DNA from: a virus
Virus record (IMG/VR): IMGVR_UViG_3300005300_000028
Length of the DNA stretch: 28,951 nucleotides
Reading direction: 5' to 3' (one strand)
Position 1 is the first letter of the stretch. Each line of letters begins with the position of its first letter. Shown piece after piece: positions 228 through 9,645 of the stretch. Made by a program: the position numbers and the translations under genes. The notes beneath the pieces were generated by a model that was given only the letters and a program-made list of their open reading frames with translations, was not told the origin of the DNA and searched no databases.

Positions 228-839
228 TCACCTCAGTATTGATGAACATAATCTTTTAACTTTAGCGAGTTTGTCAACTTCTTTTCTAAAGTTTCTAACA
301 TTAATTTCGAAAATTTCTATCGTTTTCATGTCTTTTGCCTTGACGCTTTTACCCCAAGAAAGCCAGATTTTCCCATACTTTCCACTGTAGGTCTCAGGAA
401 TTGTCGTGTCAAACCCATCGAACGCAAAAAGCACATATGGGTTATTTTCTCTCCAGAATCCAAGATACCATCGCTTTTTGTGTTTAAAATTCGATATAAA
501 CCAGTCCAAACTGTAATCTCTAAACTGTCTGCGGTGTGGAAATCCTATCCAGTCGAATTGCTCAGCAATCTCTTTCTCTTTCTTTTTGTGTAAGGGAAAT
601 ATCCATTCGACATGGGGGTACTGTTCTTTTAACATCAAAGCATTTTCATATTGGTAGTCAGGAGCGATTGCAAATTTTACGTCGTATTTCTCGATACACT
701 TGATTAGGTAATTTACCTGTGCCTTCCTGTCTTTAACGTAGTGGTTGTCAATAAACTCAGGAAAAGACATAAATCCATATTTGTTAATGATTTCTCTTTC
801 TTTAACTGTAAAACATATACATGGTAATGTTGCTATCAT
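228..839 (-). CDS. Hypothetical protein with tRNA-guanine-transglycosylase (TGT/DpdA)-like C-terminal motifs
   Basis: KRWYLGFW...FDGFDTTIPETYSGKYGKIW resembles the TGT barrel pattern kprylmG...vDmFDsv.Pt..a..G; FAIAPD motif upstream. The ORF is solid; the function is tentative. Confidence 0.4.
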   Translation of the reverse strand: MIATLPCICFTVKEREIINKYGFMSFPEFIDNHYVKDRKAQVNYLIKCIEKYDVKFAIAPDYQYENALMLKEQYPHVEWIFPLHKKKEKEIAEQFDWIGFPHRRQFRDYSLDWFISNFKHKKRWYLGFWRENNPYVLFAFDGFDTTIPETYSGKYGKIWLSWGKSVKAKDMKTIEIFEINVRNFRKEVDKLAKVKRLCSSILR

Positions 840-1042
840 ACATTACCTCTCCCCCACTTTATTTTATCCCAGATTCGTTCGTGGATATAATAGATAACCA
901 CGCTTCCCATTAGATACAGCACGATAACCTCGATGCTTTTCTCAACACTTTCTGTTGCCCAGTAAGCAATCATAAATGCCACAGCAGTTACCCAGATTCG
1001 GTAAGACACAGCTTTAACAAGGCTTCGCTTCCTCGACTCCAT
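836..1042 (-). CDS. DUF2061-family small membrane protein
   Basis: ES-RKRSLVKAVSYR...YYIHERIWDKIKWG matches the DUF2061 consensus (RS.xKa.sWR...YY.HER.W..i.wG). Likely ATG at 1042 with a GGAGG RBS; the track start at 1096 is too long. Confidence 0.8.
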   Translation of the reverse strand: MESRKRSLVKAVSYRIWVTAVAFMIAYWATESVEKSIEVIVLYLMGSVVIYYIHERIWDKIKWGRGNV

Positions 1043-1325
1043 AAGCCAACCTCCATACTGCACATATTTTCTTTTTCCTTGCCAACCGTTTCTCAACCAT
1101 TCCTCTGTTCTCCAGAATCGACAACCAGTATCTTATTGTAGACCTGTCAAACCCCGACACTTCTTCAAGTTCAGAAAGTGTATACCATTCGGAATCTAAG
1201 CTTTCTAAGAACTTTCTGATTTTCCTAAACATGTGTTTACTGCGGTAATCAAGCGTATCTTCGCATCTGTAACAAACTACTGATTCTGATGTTGTTTCGT
1301 TTTTACCACATAAGATACACATCAT
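1014..1325 (-). CDS. Zn-finger plus winged-helix (ArsR/MarR-like) DNA-binding protein
   Basis: CxxC...CxxC at the N-terminus, then TLSELEEVSGFDRSTIRYWLSILENRGMV helix-turn-helix and wing. Confidence 0.65.
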   Translation of the reverse strand: MMCILCGKNETTSESVVCYRCEDTLDYRSKHMFRKIRKFLESLDSEWYTLSELEEVSGFDRSTIRYWLSILENRGMVEKRLARKKKICAVWRLAYGVEEAKPC

Positions 1326-3090: not shown

Positions 3091-3969
3091 CTACTCAAAA
3101 GCTCTTTCTCCAAAATAAATCTCCCAGAAGTCATTAAAGTACCTGTTAATCAACCTTCTTAGCTTCATTATGTTGATACTCCCCTTTGTATTTTTCTTTG
3201 CTATTGAATTAAGACGTATTACGTAGTATTCCGTGCTTTCCTGTGCACGCTCCGTTACTATTTCTGAAACTTTATAATCGTACTCGTAGTCTGGTTCTGG
3301 ATGCTCACGTCCGTGTTCATAGTCTACTAACCAGCAGAAGTCAAGAGTTAGTGGAGAGTTATACCACAGTATTCTTTGGGGATAGTTATTCATAACTAAT
3401 AAATCAAAAGGTTCGCACATCTGATATACTTTCTCAAAAAGTTCGCAGGCACATGGAATTGCTAACGCATCTGTTACTTTACGTATATCAATTTCCACTT
3501 TAATACCGAGCTCTTTACATTTTTCTCTTAGTAAGACAACTTCCGCTAAACCAAGGTCTTCTCGTGTTCTAAGGTAAATTATAACCTTATCTATACTGTC
3601 AACTGTTACTGGATTTGTAGAATAAAACTCACTTTCCCATGGCATCATTGTGTCATCCCAAAAAATACGTCCATTAGGTGAAGCCCATGTTCCATGTTTA
3701 CTAATTTGTACGAAAGCTCTCAGGTAGTCAAGGTAATAGAACAATTCCTTCTTAAAAACGATTGATGTTGTAACGTTATAAGAAAAAGTGGTTAGTACAG
3801 TTTTATCAGTTGCACACACTCTACTTGAGTCAGATAACTGAGGAAGCCAAGCACCATCTTGTAATATAAATATAGCTGTCTCTGGTTTTGTGAACTTATG
3901 GATAGCATCAGATGAGAACTCTCTGCTCCAAACCTTATAATATTTGCTAAGCTCGTCAATGAAATTCAC
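3091..3969 (-). CDS. Hypothetical protein, 292 aa
   Basis: Long ORF co-oriented and abutting its neighbours; no motif recognised. Confidence 0.7.
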   Translation of the reverse strand: MNFIDELSKYYKVWSREFSSDAIHKFTKPETAIFILQDGAWLPQLSDSSRVCATDKTVLTTFSYNVTTSIVFKKELFYYLDYLRAFVQISKHGTWASPNGRIFWDDTMMPWESEFYSTNPVTVDSIDKVIIYLRTREDLGLAEVVLLREKCKELGIKVEIDIRKVTDALAIPCACELFEKVYQMCEPFDLLVMNNYPQRILWYNSPLTLDFCWLVDYEHGREHPEPDYEYDYKVSEIVTERAQESTEYYVIRLNSIAKKNTKGSINIMKLRRLINRYFNDFWEIYFGERAFE

Positions 3970-4366: not shown

Positions 4367-4606
4367 CTAACTTAATCTAACAAGCTTCATCTTTTTTAAA
4401 TAATTTTTGAACGGTTCCGATTTAGATATTTCGTCAATATCGTTTTTTGTTACTTCCGATATGACCGATAAGTAGTTTTTAGCCACCTCTGGTACTAAGT
4501 TATAGTATATACATCTCCGTGGAACGTTAGGAGCAAATATCTCTATATCCTTAATTGTGCACCTGTTATCGCTTAACCATACACAGTTTACGCACCTGAC
4601 CATCAT
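4367..4606 (-). CDS. Small Cys-rich hypothetical protein
   Basis: CVNC...C...C pattern; operon position. Confidence 0.6.
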   Translation of the reverse strand: MMVRCVNCVWLSDNRCTIKDIEIFAPNVPRRCIYYNLVPEVAKNYLSVISEVTKNDIDEISKSEPFKNYLKKMKLVRLS

Positions 4607-4749
4607 ATTAGTTCCTTTATTGATTCTACAAACTTTATTAGCACTTTTTTCACGTCATCAACACTCTGAACGTTTATGATTTCGTTCTCTATCTCTTCGA
4701 TGAGTCTTTTAACTTTTTTGCGTTTGTTCAAGTCATCAAGCAACTTCAT
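4603..4749 (-). CDS. Small helical hypothetical protein, 48 aa (MKLLDDLNKRKKVKRLIEEIENEIINVQSVDDVKKVLIKFVESIKELI), missed by the ORF track
   Basis: GGAGGTG RBS upstream; TGA overlaps the ATG of the next gene; fills the gap. Confidence 0.55.
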   Translation of the reverse strand: MKLLDDLNKRKKVKRLIEEIENEIINVQSVDDVKKVLIKFVESIKELI

Positions 4750-5911
4750 CTTTCGCCACCTCCAAAATTTCGTCTTTCATGTGCCTCCACATCTCCTGAA
4801 GGAAGCTCAAAGCTCTTGTTGTTCCCGTTGAACCAAGGATTTCGATTTCACCCATCAAGTATGCCGTTTCAAGGTCTAACTCGTCTTTCGCAAGCCTGAA
4901 CAACGTGTCAACGTCTGTCATTATGGTTAAGTTTACTGCCTTAGGTTCTTTCAGAACAATAAGTTTACCGTCTGTTAATTTCAGGTAAACCTGAGTCACT
5001 ATGTCTCCACCGCTGTGAACAATGAATTCAATCACGTTTCCACCAAATCCGCTATCTGTCAGTTTTTTCAGGTTTACTGATTTGTTCAGCTTAATTATTG
5101 TCTTTGTTACAACCTTCACGATGTTCTTCTTGAACGAATCAGACACCCTCTTCATTATTCTGTCAAGGATACTGCTACCGACTGGTTTTGACTCATCTAT
5201 GCGAGCAACGACTTCATGCATGATTGGTTCGACTTCTTCAGGAATTACTGGAACACCAGCTTGAATTATTTCAAAGATATCAGGGCTTAGCGGAATATCG
5301 CCAAGGAACGGAACGTTAAACTCTCTGCAAATCTCCTGAGTTTTTCCGTCGCCAAAGAACTTATACACCGAACCGTGTTCACACTTGAAATAAGCCATGT
5401 TGTTAATTACTCCGAGAACTGGAACGTTGTAATATTTCAAGATGCTGAGGATTCTCTTAAGGTCTCGCCAAGATGAAGGGATAGTAACGACAACAGCACC
5501 GACAATGGTTTGATAGTAAGCCTTTAAAACACCTCTGAACAAATCAGATGCTCCAGCAGGGCAATCTATTATCATTATCGCGTTCTTTAGGTTTACTCTC
5601 CACTCTGCAAACTGTAAAACATCAAGCAACATCTGAACGTAGCTGTCTCCCCGCATTGATACTGCTTTGTCTTTTGTTACTAAACCGAAACTGAAGAAGT
5701 CTAAGTTGTCAAGGTGAACAACCTCAATTCTGTTTGGCTCTATGCGGATTTCTTTGTCTATTTTCAGCATATCGGCAAGATTTGGACTGTCTACGTCTGC
5801 ATCAACCAGTATGGTGTCTCTACCCAGCTGGCTGAGATAGGTAGCAAGGAAAACTGACGTTGAAGACTTTCCTGTTCCTCCTTTAAGCGAAACAACCAGA
5901 ACGGTTTTCAT
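4736..5911 (-). CDS. Mrp/NBP35 (MinD/ParA superfamily) P-loop ATPase fused to a C-terminal SCP2-like lipid-binding domain
   Basis: Deviant Walker A KGGTGKS, DADVDSPN, IDCPAG, GVINNMAYFKCEHG...FG and FLGDIPL are all Mrp-like. The C-terminal ~110 aa with TIMTDVDTLFRLAKDELDLETAYLMGEIEILG resembles the SCP2 consensus (ti..d..tf..l..g.l....af..Gki.i.G). Confidence 0.75.
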   Translation of the reverse strand: MKTVLVVSLKGGTGKSSTSVFLATYLSQLGRDTILVDADVDSPNLADMLKIDKEIRIEPNRIEVVHLDNLDFFSFGLVTKDKAVSMRGDSYVQMLLDVLQFAEWRVNLKNAIMIIDCPAGASDLFRGVLKAYYQTIVGAVVVTIPSSWRDLKRILSILKYYNVPVLGVINNMAYFKCEHGSVYKFFGDGKTQEICREFNVPFLGDIPLSPDIFEIIQAGVPVIPEEVEPIMHEVVARIDESKPVGSSILDRIMKRVSDSFKKNIVKVVTKTIIKLNKSVNLKKLTDSGFGGNVIEFIVHSGGDIVTQVYLKLTDGKLIVLKEPKAVNLTIMTDVDTLFRLAKDELDLETAYLMGEIEILGSTGTTRALSFLQEMWRHMKDEILEVAKDEVA

Positions 5912-5921
5912 GTCTCACCTC

Positions 5922-6947
5922 CTACTCAACCAATCCTTCTTCCTCAAGTTCACGGACAATTTCTTCATCTGTTCTGCCCGAACCGCTTGGGACATGCTCT
6001 TCTTCGGTTTTGAGAATTCTCGGAGCTAAATATTTAACTAATGTTTGTCTGAACTTTTTGTTTTCAACAATGATGCGTTCGCCCAACGTCAGAATTTTAT
6101 CTCCCATTTCAGCAATTAAGCGTGCATAGTCGTCCTTCCAGCCCTCTGGTGAGATTGTTCTTACCCTTGACTCTGACATCATCTCAGCCATTTTACCAAT
6201 TTGACTTTCAAGTTTGTCAAGATGTCTTCTGAGGAATTCGTTTTCAACTTGAGCTCTGATTGCTTCTGGGTCTGGTTTACTTTTGATTTCGTGAATCAAC
6301 ATGTTGTAAAATTGCTGTTGCTGTTGCATCATCTGTTGCATTATAGTAAACATCAAAGAGAAAGTATTGCCATCATTGCTCGTGTTGACTGTAATTGGTA
6401 ATTGTGGATATGAATGAGAAATGAATGAATCATGACTTGGTACAAACGTTGATATTGACCTTTTGTAGTTTTCACGAACTTTGAATACTGCAGATACAAT
6501 CCAACTTATTGCATCATCATCAGCTTTTGGAAAATTCCTACGTAATGCTTTGAATAATTCTTGTGGATTCTCTTGTAATATTGGGTTATTTCTGAAAAAC
6601 ACATTGACAAACCATTCAGTTTTTGAACCTGAACCAATGCCCGGTGTTGCATCCATTTGAGTTTTTAGTGTTGTACACATCTCTTCAAGCATCTCCTCCT
6701 CTGGGGTAAGTAACCTATTTCTAACCGGTTCATGCTGTTGAACCCTGATTTTCTCTTCTTTATCTGGTGTTGATGATGTTGAATGGTATTTTCTGAAGTG
6801 TTTTGCTATCTGATTCATTTCGCCAATCTCTTCGCCGCAAAGTTTACAAACGTATACTCTTTGACCATCGGGTTTCTCAACAAGATAAGTTTTCCTCTGT
6901 TCAGATACTATTTTGTATTCGCCATTCTCTTCATCAATCGCCATCAT
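5922..6947 (-). CDS. C2H2 Zn-finger protein with a Q-rich coiled-coil region
   Basis: YVCKLCGEEIGEMNQIAKHFRKYH; MQQMMQQQQQF tract; helical C-terminus. Confidence 0.7.
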   Translation of the reverse strand: MMAIDEENGEYKIVSEQRKTYLVEKPDGQRVYVCKLCGEEIGEMNQIAKHFRKYHSTSSTPDKEEKIRVQQHEPVRNRLLTPEEEMLEEMCTTLKTQMDATPGIGSGSKTEWFVNVFFRNNPILQENPQELFKALRRNFPKADDDAISWIVSAVFKVRENYKRSISTFVPSHDSFISHSYPQLPITVNTSNDGNTFSLMFTIMQQMMQQQQQFYNMLIHEIKSKPDPEAIRAQVENEFLRRHLDKLESQIGKMAEMMSESRVRTISPEGWKDDYARLIAEMGDKILTLGERIIVENKKFRQTLVKYLAPRILKTEEEHVPSGSGRTDEEIVRELEEEGLVE

Positions 6948-6963
6948 ATCTTATTAGATATCA

Positions 6964-6985
6964 ATGTATATAGATTTATCCCTTC
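6964..6985 (-). promoter_or_regulatory. Putative TATA box for the leaderless ZnF/Mrp/lipid transcription unit
   Basis: Minus strand GGATAAATCTATATACA about 20-25 nt upstream of the ATG at 6947; no RBS before this gene. Confidence 0.3.
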
Positions 6986-7003
6986 AACGTGTTTTGAGAT
7001 GCA

Positions 7004-7488
7004 ACGACACCGCAATATTTATTAGCCGATTTTTATTGAGTATATTAATTAATACCAAAATCCAAAAAGTTGCTACCGACATTATACTACGACACTAAAA
7101 CCTAATTTTATAAATATACGGGATAAAAAAGATTATTGATTTTTTCTTGCAAAGAAAGAATTTAAAGGATTTTCTTTACTGCGACACTACGACACTACGA
7201 CACTGTGAAGATGTAGTTTATTTTTATCTAACATTCCAAATAGTAATAATACTACGACACTACATTATAATAGTGTCGTAGTTGACGTAGTATAGAAAAG
7301 AATTCTACAGCCTCTAATTTCGAAATAAATCCACCAAATTTTTTATCTTTAGATAATATAAAAATATCCAAAAGTGTCGTAGTATTTTCCAGCATAGAAC
7401 CACCTTCTACATATAATCATAGAACCTAAATATAAATTAACGTAATGTGAAAAAGATAAATCAACTATGACGGGCATGGTGTCGTAGT
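7004..7488. repeat. Dyad-symmetric array of ACTACGACACT repeats in an AT-rich non-coding region (putative origin, iterons or centromere)
   Basis: Forward copies at 7086, 7178 (variant), 7186, 7194 and 7251; reverse copies at 7272, 7373 and 7478 (10/11); partial ACGACAC at 7004. This is the only long intergenic region in the window. Confidence 0.85.
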
Positions 7489-7496
7489 TCAAAAAA

Positions 7497-8879
7497 TCAC
7501 CACAAATCTTTTAACAGCTTACCGTTCACCATAAATGCGTCTTTTCCGATTAAGTACTGTTCTGCTCTCTTCCTGTCTTCAAAGAAGACCATTCTCCACT
7601 TTGCTCCTCTGCCTACATACTCTTTCTCTCTGACACAGAAGATTTCTTCTTTGTCAAGCATTGAAGCCAGTATATCTCTCAGCTGTTCATTGTCTATCTT
7701 TAACTTCCTTGCCAGCTCTCTTCTGCTTATCACACCACCCGACAAGTTGATTATATGCTTTATCTTCTCCTCAATGTCGGACACGAGCTTTAACGGTTGT
7801 TTCTGTTTCGGTGTTGATATCTCAACAATCATATCAAGGATTCTGGCAACAACCCAATCAAAGTAAATCAAGGCCTTGTCGAAATACTCGATGTCGTTCA
7901 CGTGATATATCGGTTCTCCAGCAATTAGTATTGGACTTAACTTAGGGTCGGCAAGTGCTTCAAGAACAGTAAGTTTAAGCAAGTGTTCCCAGCTCGAATC
8001 AAGATAACCACCGTCTTTGTTCATATACTTTTGAACACACAGCTTGTGCAGTTCTTCTGCTCGCTCGTTTATTGCGTCTCTAACTTCTGTGTCAAGTATT
8101 ACGTCGATTTTGTAGTCTGGACCGAAATTCTCTATAAACTTGTGAGCATCTATCATTTTATCAGCAATTGCTTCGCCGATTTTGACCAACTCGTCGTATA
8201 CAGTCTGCATTTTCGTGTCAAGCGGTGGAAGATACTTTGTTAAGTCTTTTGCTGAGATATTAACGAAAAACGTTCTCCTCACAAGCCCCTGGCGGACATC
8301 GTATTCTGTTAAGTATAAATCAGGGTCTTGCATACCGCAAATCATTGTGAAATACAAGCCTTTTGGTATTTTCCTTACGTTCTTTTTCCCTTGTCGTTTA
8401 CTCAAAACTTGTTTATACGTTTCACCGTAGTAAAGCTTGCTCAACATCCCTCTTGCTCCAAACATGTAACGTTGACCTTCGCTTCTTTTCAGCCAAACAC
8501 CAAATTCGTCAGAAATCAGAACGAAATCCTTGATTTTACTGCTCATTTCTTCAATGTAGTCAGCCACACCCTCAATTGTGAATTCTTCAATAAACTTGTC
8601 TTCAACGTTGATATCAATGTTTAGCGTGTCGTAATATTTCTGCCAAGCGATTTCGTAAACTGTTCTGGCATAGTCTATCACTGTTGATTTCCTTGTCAAT
8701 CCTGCTGGTCCACAAAACACAACGAACAAGTTTGGACGTAGTGGTCTCCTGCTTTCGATAACCTGAAAAAATGGTCCAAGAGTTGCTGAAATCAACCAAT
8801 AAGCCGACCCTTTGATGATAACATCTGGAGCGTCGGTATGTTCTGAAACAATCTGAAGAAAATCATCTATCCAGTTCAT
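7497..8879 (-). CDS. DUF3987/YfjI-like AAA+ putative replicative helicase with a C-terminal winged helix
   Basis: Walker A-like GPAGLTRKST, Walker B LISDEFG, arginine-finger-like QGLVRR, and a C-terminal wHTH (ISRRELARKLKIDNEQLRDILASM). Likely start 8879 (GGTGA RBS). Confidence 0.6.
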   Translation of the reverse strand: MNWIDDFLQIVSEHTDAPDVIIKGSAYWLISATLGPFFQVIESRRPLRPNLFVVFCGPAGLTRKSTVIDYARTVYEIAWQKYYDTLNIDINVEDKFIEEFTIEGVADYIEEMSSKIKDFVLISDEFGVWLKRSEGQRYMFGARGMLSKLYYGETYKQVLSKRQGKKNVRKIPKGLYFTMICGMQDPDLYLTEYDVRQGLVRRTFFVNISAKDLTKYLPPLDTKMQTVYDELVKIGEAIADKMIDAHKFIENFGPDYKIDVILDTEVRDAINERAEELHKLCVQKYMNKDGGYLDSSWEHLLKLTVLEALADPKLSPILIAGEPIYHVNDIEYFDKALIYFDWVVARILDMIVEISTPKQKQPLKLVSDIEEKIKHIINLSGGVISRRELARKLKIDNEQLRDILASMLDKEEIFCVREKEYVGRGAKWRMVFFEDRKRAEQYLIGKDAFMVNGKLLKDLW

Positions 8880-9645
8880 TCTCAATCACCTTCTTCCGCT
8901 CCAAGTAGTAAGGATACTCAACTTCTGCTCTTGACTCAGATTTTGGCAATGCTTTCAGAAGTCTCGGGTTGTCATACAAGTTGGCCCTGCAAATCAGCTG
9001 AACAACGTCAAACAGCTTTTTGCCCTGATAGAACTTGTGGACATTGTCAATCAGATAATACCACATGGTACCGTTTGCAAACTCGAATTCTCGTTTCTTG
9101 AAAATGTTTTTCACCTGTTCAAATACGTTTGTTTCACTGTAAGGCATTGAACCAGTCGTTGCCGCAATTATACTCTGTCTGACATCATCGCAAACTCTGT
9201 CAAATTTTACGTTCCCGTAGTGTCTTCTTAGGAACTCTACGATTTCTTGTTTCTTTGGCGGATAAAATCTGATAACCTCGCATCTCCTTTGAATCCAGTC
9301 AGGAATCTTCCATAACTCGTTGGCTGTTAAAACAATCGGATTCTTGCTTATCTCGAAAAGCTTCTTAACATATCTGAAATCTTCGATACCGTCAGCTTCA
9401 TCAAGTAAGATAATGCGATTCTTGAATCCTTTCATCCTTGCCACATTGTAAAGATACTCGAAATCCTCTTTTTTCCTTTCATCACTTGCGTTGAATTCAA
9501 CAACATCCCAGCCAAGTTTTTCTGCCACACAGTATACTGAGTATGTTTTACCGATACCCGGCCGTCCTACAATCAAGACTGGCTTATTTATCCTTACGAG
9601 TTCTTCTATTCTTCTGAGCTGTTCTTGATTTCCGATGAATTCCAA
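8863..9645 (-). CDS. rfcL: Replication factor C large subunit-like clamp-loader ATPase (short form)
   Basis: GRPGIGKT, VVEFNASDER, ILLDEADG, PIVLTAN and RRC; TTG start with a GAGGTGA RBS. Confidence 0.75.
   Translation of the reverse strand: MEFIGNQEQLRRIEELVRINKPVLIVGRPGIGKTYSVYCVAEKLGWDVVEFNASDERKKEDFEYLYNVARMKGFKNRIILLDEADGIEDFRYVKKLFEISKNPIVLTANELWKIPDWIQRRCEVIRFYPPKKQEIVEFLRRHYGNVKFDRVCDDVRQSIIAATTGSMPYSETNVFEQVKNIFKKREFEFANGTMWYYLIDNVHKFYQGKKLFDVVQLICRANLYDNPRLLKALPKSESRAEVEYPYYLERKKVIENELDR

What the first reader, a model, noticed from the sequence alone, without database searches (positions are those of the whole stretch)
4736..7488. Repeat array, Zn-finger protein and ParA-superfamily ATPase: candidate membrane-anchored partition or tethering system
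Seen: the order repeat array, C2H2 Zn-finger/coiled-coil protein, deviant-Walker-A ATPase-SCP2 mirrors the centromere/adaptor/ATPase layout of type I partition cassettes, and the same unit continues into lipid-enzyme genes. Inference: the ZnF protein binds ACTACGACACT, and the ATPase links the genome to a membrane via SCP2, possibly one remodelled by GGR/UbiA. This would be a new segregation or replication-compartment system. Caveat: the ATPase looks more Mrp-like than ParA-like.
Basis: inference. Interest (0 to 1): 0.7.

Follow-up and report, generated by a model that had tools for sequence, protein, structure and literature searches.

The report
Replication-origin repeats beside an orphan ATPase pair
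On a mobile element of hot-spring archaea, a real array of short repeats most likely marks the replication origin, while the two genes beside it (a zinc-finger protein and a lipid-domain ATPase) form a separate, conserved and unstudied pair that does not fit a classical plasmid-partition system.

Summary
All three features exist. The array holds 8 exact or near-exact and 2 degenerate copies of ACTACGACAC at 7001-7488. The copies are dyad-symmetric, lie in AT-rich DNA and are selectively conserved: 93% identity against 68% for the spacers in a relative.

The zinc-finger (ZnF) gene and the ATPase-SCP2 gene are a tightly coupled pair. They are adjacent in all four related loci where this can be seen, down to 32-49% identity, including a Thermococcus contig.

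The trio is not conserved. The array occurs only in the two close relatives that also keep the DUF3987-like helicase next to it. It is absent in three more distant loci.

The ATPase belongs to the Mrp/NBP35 lineage by sequence and by fold, not to ParA. The ZnF protein is acidic and has no known centromere-binder fold.

My reading is two units. One is an iteron-type origin serving the helicase-led replisome. The other is a new gene pair built on an Mrp-derived, lipid-binding ATPase, whose role is unproven and is probably handling of isoprenoid lipid or membrane.

The partition or tether idea survives only as a minority rival. Which protein reads the repeats is unresolved.

The same scan had already flagged the array as a probable origin.

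The parts
7001..7488 (.). Iteron array with ten sites of ACTACGACAC or its complement. On the + strand the forward copies are at 7001 (degenerate), 7086, 7178, 7186, 7194 and 7251. The reverse copies are at 7273, 7282 (degenerate), 7374 and 7479. Spacings are about 57-105 bp, and there is a triple at 8-bp period (7178-7203).
   Evidence: In window versus L001, iteron columns are 92.6% identical against 68.4% for the other intergenic columns (Fisher p = 2e-7). Site positions are conserved in L001 and L002, and L002 shows concerted sequence change.
7251..7282 (.). Central perfect palindrome: two 12-nt iteron arms with an 8-nt spacer. It is the dyad centre of the array and also scores as terminator-like on the minus strand.
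   Evidence: (I10).
7497..8885 (-). DUF3987-like putative replicative helicase with a basic C-terminal winged-helix domain (residues about 382-441, roughly 7563-7742).
   Evidence: PHROG primase-helicase families. PF13148 (DUF3987) is matched by 4 of 10 family members. TFIIE-alpha-like winged helix at 0.0035. The C-terminal 93 aa have pI 9.1.
6948..7000 (-). Probable promoter region of the ZnF-ATPase operon. A TATA-like AAATCTATATA lies about 25-35 nt before the ATG, and TATATA is conserved in L001 and L002.
   Evidence: Read from the sequence and the alignment. This is an inference; no archaeal promoter tool was available.
5922..6947 (-). ZnF protein, 341 aa. It has a beta-hairpin plus a single C2H2 finger (12-55), a five-helix domain (80-166, pLDDT above 90), a Q-rich coiled coil (194-312) and a conserved acidic C-terminal helix (326-341).
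4736..5911 (-). Mrp/NBP35-lineage deviant-Walker-A ATPase (residues 1-245) fused to an SCP2-like domain (about 280-385). C177 is invariant. The second ligand position is His here and Cys in the other clades.
4367..4606 (-). Small basic four-Cys protein (CxxC-x7-C-x15-C). It is also conserved directly downstream of the pair in the Thermococcus locus L010.

Best explanation
The finding joins two separable units.

(1) The repeat array is a cis-acting, protein-bound iteron array, most likely the replication origin of the element. It sits at the end of the replisome operon, directly beside a DUF3987-type helicase. That helicase's basic C-terminal winged helix is the leading candidate reader of the repeats. 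This is inferred by analogy with the winged-helix domains that have been proposed to recognise origins in primase-helicases of mobile elements.

(2) The ZnF gene and the ATPase-SCP2 gene form a translationally coupled operon that travels as a pair on archaeal mobile elements, with or without the array. The ATPase descends from Mrp/NBP35 Fe-S carriers and presumably works as an ATP-dependent dimer switch. Its SCP2 domain would hold a hydrophobic isoprenoid or lipid ligand. The ZnF/coiled-coil protein would be its partner or regulator, perhaps through the conserved acidic tail.

Shown here: the repeats are real and under selection; the pair is conserved; the ATPase belongs to the Mrp/NBP35 lineage. 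Inferred: origin function, which protein binds the repeats, and every step of the ATPase mechanism.
For: Array:
- It is far above chance, AT-rich and dyad-symmetric.
- The iterons are conserved far more than the spacers.
- In L002 the inner repeats and the outer inverted pair changed in concert, as expected for sites read by a protein.
- The array is present in 2 of 2 loci with the adjacent helicase (L001, L002) and in 0 of 3 without it (L003, L004, L010).
- In L010 a weak DUF3987-like gene (hhalign E = 8.6e-4, probability only 24%) has its own cluster of five short repeats upstream, away from the ZnF-ATPase pair.
- DUF3987 has been predicted to be a helicase of mobile-element replication (PMC5862659).

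Pair:
- The two genes are adjacent in 4 of 4 informative loci, with gaps of 10 bp or less or overlaps.
- Family members share longest-contig lengths of 25293, 21167, 29855 and 3491 bp, which suggests, without proving, that they sit on the same contigs.

ATPase lineage.

SCP2 domain: above the Pfam cut-off here, and recorded for most relatives.

Lipid genes: UbiA and GGR-like genes lie next to the pair in two lineages, in different gene orders.
Against: - No replication data exist. GC skew is uninformative because every gene is on one strand.
- The helicase's putative recognition helix is identical in L002 although the iterons changed. Only the preceding helix differs. The finger's -1 and +2 positions do differ in L002. 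The single available covariation case therefore does not favour the helicase over the ZnF protein.
- L003 has four TAAAAGTW copies, and L010 a 12-nt palindrome, upstream of the ZnF gene. The ZnF protein may therefore bind its own upstream DNA.
- L010 lacks UbiA and GGR within 10 kb.
- The Cys motif is lost in some members of the wider family, so the chemistry of the ATPase is unclear.
- The three negative loci are the most distant relatives.
Confidence: 0.5

Rival explanations
1. The array is a centromere, the ZnF/coiled-coil protein is the centromere-binding adaptor, and the Mrp-derived ATPase is a ParA/MinD-like motor. The SCP2 domain would provide membrane attachment, giving a membrane-based partition or tethering system.
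For: - The ATPase has a deviant Walker A motif with the signature lysine.
- The layout is cis repeats, then adaptor, then ATPase, on a mobile element, and no other ParA-like gene is in the window.
- The finger's recognition positions vary across the family. They change at -1 and +2 exactly in the relative with altered iterons, and are unchanged in L001, which has the same iterons.
- A coiled coil fits a multivalent DNA binder, and sites about 100 bp apart fit a wrapped complex.
Against: - The ATPase is of Mrp/NBP35 lineage, and the ParA profile matches only the P-loop.
- The array does not travel with the pair in L003, L004 or L010.
- The ZnF protein is acidic (pI 5.0-5.5), and its finger domain has a net charge from -2 to +6.
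- Known SCP2 domains are soluble lipid carriers, not membrane anchors (established knowledge).
- No ParB or ribbon-helix-helix fold or family was found. The fold searches were inconclusive.
Confidence: 0.2
2. The ATPase keeps the ancestral Mrp/NBP35 job as a metal or Fe-S cluster carrier. It would serve client proteins of the element, for example the neighbouring four-Cys protein or an electron donor for the GGR-like reductase. The ZnF protein would act as co-chaperone, as HypA does with ATPase-type HypB.
For: - C177 is invariant in 19 sequences, and the second ligand is Cys or His. One member has the canonical CPKC motif.
- The best sequence and fold matches are ApbC, Cfd1, AF_226 and HypB in the HypAB complex.
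- A four-Cys protein is conserved just downstream in the window and in L010.
Against: - Scores are far below the ApbC and MrpORP equivalog cut-offs.
- The motif is CxC or CxH rather than CxxC. It is lost outright in several members of the wider family that keep the SCP2-like tail.
- This model does not explain the SCP2 fusion.
- The ZnF protein is unlike HypA.
Confidence: 0.12
3. The ZnF protein is simply a transcription regulator of its own operon. In this model the array is a composite of origin, terminator and operator, and the ATPase has no mechanistic link to the DNA sites.
For: - Short repeats or a palindrome lie just upstream of the ZnF gene in L003 and L010.
- The central palindrome scores as terminator-like.
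- C2H2 proteins are common in archaeal viruses (established knowledge).
Against: - Strict pairing and translational coupling with the ATPase in every informative locus suggests a joint function.
- The large conserved helical and coiled-coil parts are not needed for a simple repressor.
Confidence: 0.1

Closest known systems
Iteron-type replication origins read by a winged-helix domain of a primase or helicase initiator. Examples: phage P4 alpha protein with its ori/crr repeats (from my own knowledge), and the winged-helix domain proposed to recognise the origin in PolpTN2 primases (PMC5862659).
   Same: Clustered short repeats in both orientations, AT-rich spacers, position next to the replicative helicase gene, and a basic C-terminal winged helix on that helicase.
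   Different: Binding and initiation are untested. The array lies downstream of the helicase gene and upstream of the ZnF operon. The helicase family (DUF3987) has not been characterised experimentally.
Type I partition cassettes (ParA/ParB/parS) and the archaeal pNOB8 AspA-ParB-ParA and SegAB systems.
   Same: A deviant-Walker-A ATPase, an adjacent gene for a putative nucleic-acid-binding oligomeric protein, and cis repeats upstream. The order of sites, adaptor and ATPase recalls pNOB8.
   Different: The ATPase is in the Mrp/NBP35 clade, not the ParA clade. The partner has a C2H2 finger and is acidic, with no ParB HTH, ribbon-helix-helix or AspA-type winged helix detected. The repeats are not conserved with the pair. 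The ATPase carries an SCP2 domain.
Mrp/NBP35/ApbC Fe-S carriers, and the Thermococcus ATPase-type HypB with HypA.
   Same: The best sequence and fold matches are to these proteins. The first Cys of the bridging motif is conserved. A zinc-binding partner gene is adjacent, as with HypA and HypB.
   Different: The motif is CxC or CxH instead of CxxC. The C-terminal SCP2 domain replaces the DUF59 or DUF971 domains seen in cellular Mrp proteins. The protein is encoded on mobile elements. Scores are below the equivalog cut-offs.
SCP2-domain lipid carriers UbiJ and UbiT of ubiquinone biosynthesis, and the hydrophobic-cargo ATPase Get3 (both from my own knowledge).
   Same: An SCP2 domain occurs next to a UbiA-family prenyltransferase and a prenyl reductase. 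The ATPase belongs to the same broad P-loop class as Get3, has a Cys site at the dimer interface and has a coiled-coil partner.
   Different: This is analogy only. No sequence relationship to UbiJ, UbiT or Get3 was shown here. ArsA/Get3 profiles match only the P-loop.

Membership tests
ParA-type partition ATPase (type I par) | Matches ParA-clade profiles over the full length | tested here: not met
   NF041546 ParA_partition scores 28.6 bits against a cut-off of 180 and covers only residues 4-41. MrpORP scores 128.6 bits and ApbC 93.4 bits over residues 2-238. No ParA or Soj chain appears at E <= 1e-3 by sequence. By fold, Soj and SegA rank below Cfd1, ApbC, HypB and MinD.
ParA-type partition ATPase (type I par) | Deviant Walker A motif KGGxxGK[ST] with the signature lysine | tested here: met
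   SLKGGTGKSS, with K10 and K15 invariant in 19 sequences. The motif is shared by MinD, Mrp, NifH and Get3, so it does not discriminate.
Type I partition cassette | Centromere-binding partner with a ParB-HTH or ribbon-helix-helix fold | tested here: inconclusive
   No Pfam, NCBIfam or PHROG family matches beyond a single weak C2H2 finger. Fold searches give only a Nab2-N/PWI-like bundle (Z = 7.4, rmsd 3.2, 81 aligned) and a match to an archaeal ribosomal C2H2 protein (Z = 5.5).
Type I partition cassette | Cis repeats (centromere) conserved next to the operon in relatives | tested here: not met
   The array is present in L001 and L002, which are close relatives that also keep the helicase. It is absent upstream of the ZnF gene in L003, L004 and L010. 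L003 has only 4 TAAAAGTW copies, and L010 has one 12-nt palindrome.
Type I partition cassette | Stabilises an unstable replicon | not testable with these tools
   This needs a plasmid-stability assay in an archaeal host.
Mrp/NBP35/ApbC ATPases | PF10609 match above the gathering score | tested here: met
   151.4 bits against a cut-off of 27.1, over residues 2-238.
Mrp/NBP35/ApbC ATPases | CxxC cluster-bridging motif after the NM(A/S)xF strand | tested here: inconclusive
   C177 is invariant. The window has C-E-H, most relatives have C-E-C and one has CPKC. In the wider family some members keep CPxC and some have no Cys.
Mrp/NBP35/ApbC ATPases | Reaches an NCBIfam equivalog cut-off (ApbC or MrpORP) | tested here: not met
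   128.6 bits against 450, and 93.4 bits against 348. The protein is a divergent offshoot, not an ortholog.
SCP2 domain | PF02036 match above the gathering score | tested here: met
   29.5 bits against 21.3, over residues 289-371. The domain is recorded for most relatives. The model shows an alpha/beta domain with pLDDT 73-84. Atlas look-alikes are SCP2 clusters at low scores and count as a lead only. The domain was not fold-searched on its own.
Iteron-type replication origin | Clustered short repeats, AT-rich DNA, position next to the initiator or helicase gene, repeats under selection | tested here: met
Iteron-type replication origin | Replication starts there, or the initiator binds the repeats | not testable with these tools
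   GC skew is uninformative.
DUF3987 helicases | PF13148 match | tested here: inconclusive
   The window protein itself has no PF13148 hit. Four of 10 family members do (best 3.5e-7). PHROG primase-helicase families match residues 4-235 at 2e-5.

The most novel reading that the evidence does not exclude
An ATPase derived from Mrp/NBP35, which holds a lipid through its SCP2 domain, and a zinc-finger/coiled-coil adaptor together form a previously unknown machine for DNA positioning or membrane tethering on archaeal mobile elements. It would be a third ATPase lineage, besides ParA and MinD, recruited for segregation or for building a replication compartment, with the finger reading the ACTACGACAC repeats.
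Probability: 0.13. Interest if true: 0.8.

Novelty: new variant of a known kind. Interest (0 to 1): 0.45.

Why it matters
If the array is the origin, it gives a defined origin-and-helicase pair for the uncharacterised DUF3987 helicase family. That makes origin recognition by this family directly testable.

The ZnF plus Mrp/SCP2 pair is a conserved module with no annotated function, found on mobile elements of several archaeal lineages: hot-spring metagenomes, a contig from a Thermococcus MAG, and a protein that NCBI labels Thermoplasmata. About 16 representatives of 50%-identity clusters match the ZnF family over essentially its whole length.

The pair shows an Fe-S-carrier ATPase scaffold being re-used with a lipid-binding domain. 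Working out its role would bear on how archaeal viruses or plasmids handle isoprenoid membranes. In the minority reading, it would bear on how they segregate.

Tried and rejected
The long contigs that carry more distant ZnF, ATPase and helicase homologues (25-61 kb) could not be fetched. Synteny therefore rests on five loci.
- IMG/VR scans found no relatives of the ZnF protein or the helicase. The scan with the ATPase gave only P-loop fragments.
- A genome-contig scan with the ZnF alignment found nothing. The scan with the ATPase alignment gave one true relative, L010.
- The ZnF protein has no match in the phage or plasmid collections.
- Fold searches of the ZnF model against PDB and BFVD gave no match at E <= 0.001, and the wide VIA search gave only middling helical matches.
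- Pfam scans of distant ZnF-family members gave no informative co-domains.
- The Rfam search of the array gave only sub-threshold chance hits.
- The sigma-70 promoter scan was at chance level and does not apply to archaea.
So there is no depth, end or variant information.
- Literature searches for an SCP2 plus Mrp, NBP35 or MinD fusion in archaea or viruses found nothing relevant.
- Covariation of the iteron sequence with the finger or with the winged helix rests on a single informative case (L002) and is ambiguous.
- A CRISPR-like or RNA-gene reading of the array was rejected. The units are only 10-13 nt long, their spacing is irregular and they occur in both orientations.
Full report
**Context**

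Every sizeable gene in the window is on the minus strand. The genes encode an archaeal-style replisome: family-B polymerase, RFC-like clamp loaders, an AEP primase, XPF/ERCC4, a Cas4-like nuclease and a DUF3987-like ATPase. The window also has MoxR/VWA genes, a domain resembling STIV B116, a DNA methyltransferase, UbiA and a weak GGR-like match. No whole genome is held for the window. The stretch occurs in hot-spring metagenome runs. It is therefore a virus-like or plasmid-like archaeal mobile element.

- ACTACGACAC with up to 1 mismatch gives 10 matches against 1.2 expected, and 0 of 100 shuffles reach that number. Eight lie in 7086-7488.
- With two degenerate copies the array spans 7001-7488.
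- Forward copies lie on one side and reverse copies on the other side of a perfect 12-nt palindrome at 7251-7282. There is also a triple at 8-bp period.
- The region has 26-31% GC against about 40% in the flanks. It matches no Rfam family.

**The repeats are functional sites**

The intergenic region aligns with two relatives, and the iteron positions are conserved in both.
- Against L001, iteron columns are 92.6% identical and the other intergenic columns 68.4% (Fisher p = 2e-7).
- In L002 the inner repeats have become ACTA[CT]GATAC. The outer inverted pair has become ACTGCGTTAC and GTAACGCAGT. This concerted change is what is expected of sites read by one protein.

**The two proteins**

*ZnF protein (P0002).*
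- It has one C2H2-type finger. C34, C37 and H50 are invariant, and the fourth ligand is His or Cys.
- It has a very confident five-helix domain (residues 80-166), a Q-rich coiled coil and a conserved acidic C-terminal helix.
- It has no Pfam, PHROG or NCBIfam family beyond the finger.
- No fold match is convincing. The best are a Nab2-N/PWI-like bundle at Z = 7.4 and a match of the finger to an archaeal ribosome-bound C2H2 protein.
- It is acidic (pI 5.0-5.5). The finger domain has a net charge from -2 to +6 across the family, and the tail from -6 to -10.
- About 16 representatives of 50%-identity clusters match it at E <= 1e-30, almost all over essentially the whole length. More distant proteins share only the N-terminal and central parts.

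*ATPase (P0001).*
- It matches PF10609 at 3.8e-44 and SCP2 above its cut-off.
- It matches MrpORP at 3.5e-37 and ApbC at 1.3e-26, MinD at about 1e-11, and ParA_partition at 9e-7 over the P-loop only.
- Its closest solved sequences are ApbC, AF_226, Cfd1 and ATPase-type HypB.
- The folds rank the same way, with MinD and then McdA, Soj and SegA behind.
- C177, which aligns with the first Cys of the ApbC CxxC motif, is invariant in 19 relatives. The next ligand position is His in the window clade and Cys elsewhere.
- In a wider set that keeps an SCP2-like tail, the motif is canonical CPxC in some members and absent in others.

**Synteny**

| Locus | Identity to the window proteins | Upstream of the ZnF gene | ZnF and ATPase adjacent? 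|
|---|---|---|---|
| L001 | helicase 93%, ZnF 75%, ATPase 96% | helicase, then the same array | yes |
| L002 | helicase C-terminus 78%, ZnF 72% | helicase, an extra 80-aa ORF, then the changed array | yes (ATPase cut at the contig end) |
| L003 | ZnF 38%, ATPase 42% | divergent subtilase and a 352-bp AT-rich gap; no ACTACGACAC array | yes; UbiA, a homologue of window 836-1096 and a GGR-like gene follow |
| L004 | ZnF 32% (N-terminal 135 aa) | an AAA-lid protein and a 66-bp gap | cannot be seen (contig ends) |
| L010 | ZnF 32%, ATPase 49% | divergent integrase and a 286-bp gap with one palindrome | yes (4-bp overlap); a homologue of the four-Cys protein follows; no UbiA or GGR within 10 kb |

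- ZnF and ATPase are adjacent in 4 of 4 informative loci.
- The array is present in 2 of 2 loci with the adjacent helicase and in 0 of 3 without it.
- In L010 a 453-aa protein aligns weakly with the DUF3987-like family through the Walker A, DE and RRF motifs (hhalign E = 8.6e-4, probability 24%). Five CATTCTT[AG][CA] copies lie within 74 bp upstream of it.
- ZnF, ATPase and helicase family members report identical longest-contig lengths (for example 25293 bp for all three).

**Who reads the repeats?**

This is unresolved.
- For the helicase: adjacency, a basic C-terminal winged helix, and precedent for such domains recognising origins. DUF3987 is also predicted to be a helicase of mobile-element replication (PMC5862659).
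- For the ZnF protein: the finger's contact positions (-1, 2, 3 and 6, which are E43, N45, Q46 and K49) vary across the family. They are unchanged in L001, which has the same iteron. They are D and S at -1 and +2 in L002, which has the changed iteron.
- The helicase's putative recognition helix is identical in all three loci, and only the preceding helix differs in L002.
- One informative case cannot decide the question.
- L003 has four TAAAAGTW copies in its upstream gap, out of nine in the whole locus. The ZnF protein may therefore have its own operator.

**Interpretation**

The evidence best fits two units.
- The first is an iteron-type origin tied to the helicase-led replisome. I put this at roughly 0.55.
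- The second is a separate, conserved ZnF plus Mrp/SCP2 operon.

The ATPase fails ParA membership but could still work like a ParA or MinD switch. That lowers the claim 'it is a par system' more than the claim 'it works like one'.

My favoured role for the pair is ATP-gated handling of an isoprenoid or lipid ligand, or docking to a membrane, with the ZnF protein as partner. This rests on the universal SCP2 fusion and on the UbiA and GGR-like neighbours seen in two lineages. It is inference, and it is weakened by L010.

The rivals are:
- a retained metal or Fe-S chaperone role (about 0.12);
- a plain autoregulator (about 0.1).

**Novelty**

The array is an ordinary kind of element. The gene pair is a new architecture within a known ATPase superfamily, with an unannotated partner family. 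The same scan had already noted the array as a probable origin and the ATPase as an Mrp/NBP35-SCP2 fusion. I checked both claims here.

Noticed in passing
window 4367-4606 (minus strand); L010 11311-11583: A small basic protein with four conserved Cys (CxxC-x7-C-x15-C) follows the ZnF-ATPase pair in both the window and the Thermococcus locus (35% identity). It has no family match. It could be a third member of the module, or a metal or Fe-S client.
   Followed up: partly
L010 5690-5810 and 6071-7432: Five CATTCTT[AG][CA] copies lie within 74 bp, with other short repeats nearby, about 270 bp upstream of a 453-aa protein. That protein aligns weakly with the DUF3987-like helicase family. This may be the origin and helicase unit of that element, placed apart from the ZnF-ATPase pair.
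   Followed up: partly
L003 8341-9651 (minus strand); L010 3401-4705 (minus strand): A subtilisin-like protease gene lies upstream of the ZnF-ATPase pair on the opposite strand in both distant loci. It is directly divergent in L003 and about 4 kb away in L010.
   Followed up: no
L002 257-499: An extra 80-aa ORF with no family match sits between the helicase gene and the array in L002. It is absent from the window and from L001.
   Followed up: no
window 5922-6947 versus L001 3381-4403: The ZnF protein is only 75% identical between the window and L001, while the flanking helicase and ATPase are 93% and 96% identical. The differences are concentrated in the two disordered linkers.
   Followed up: partly
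proteins P0051-P0060 (no loci held): A wider family of 400-416-aa Mrp-like ATPases has a related C-terminal domain. Members keep a canonical CPxC motif, have a variant of it, or lack the Cys altogether, which suggests repeated loss of the metal site.
   Followed up: partly
window 3091-3969 (minus strand): A 292-aa ORF lies between the ATPase region and the GGR-like gene and overlaps the start of the GGR-like gene. It has no Pfam, PHROG or NCBIfam match.
   Followed up: no
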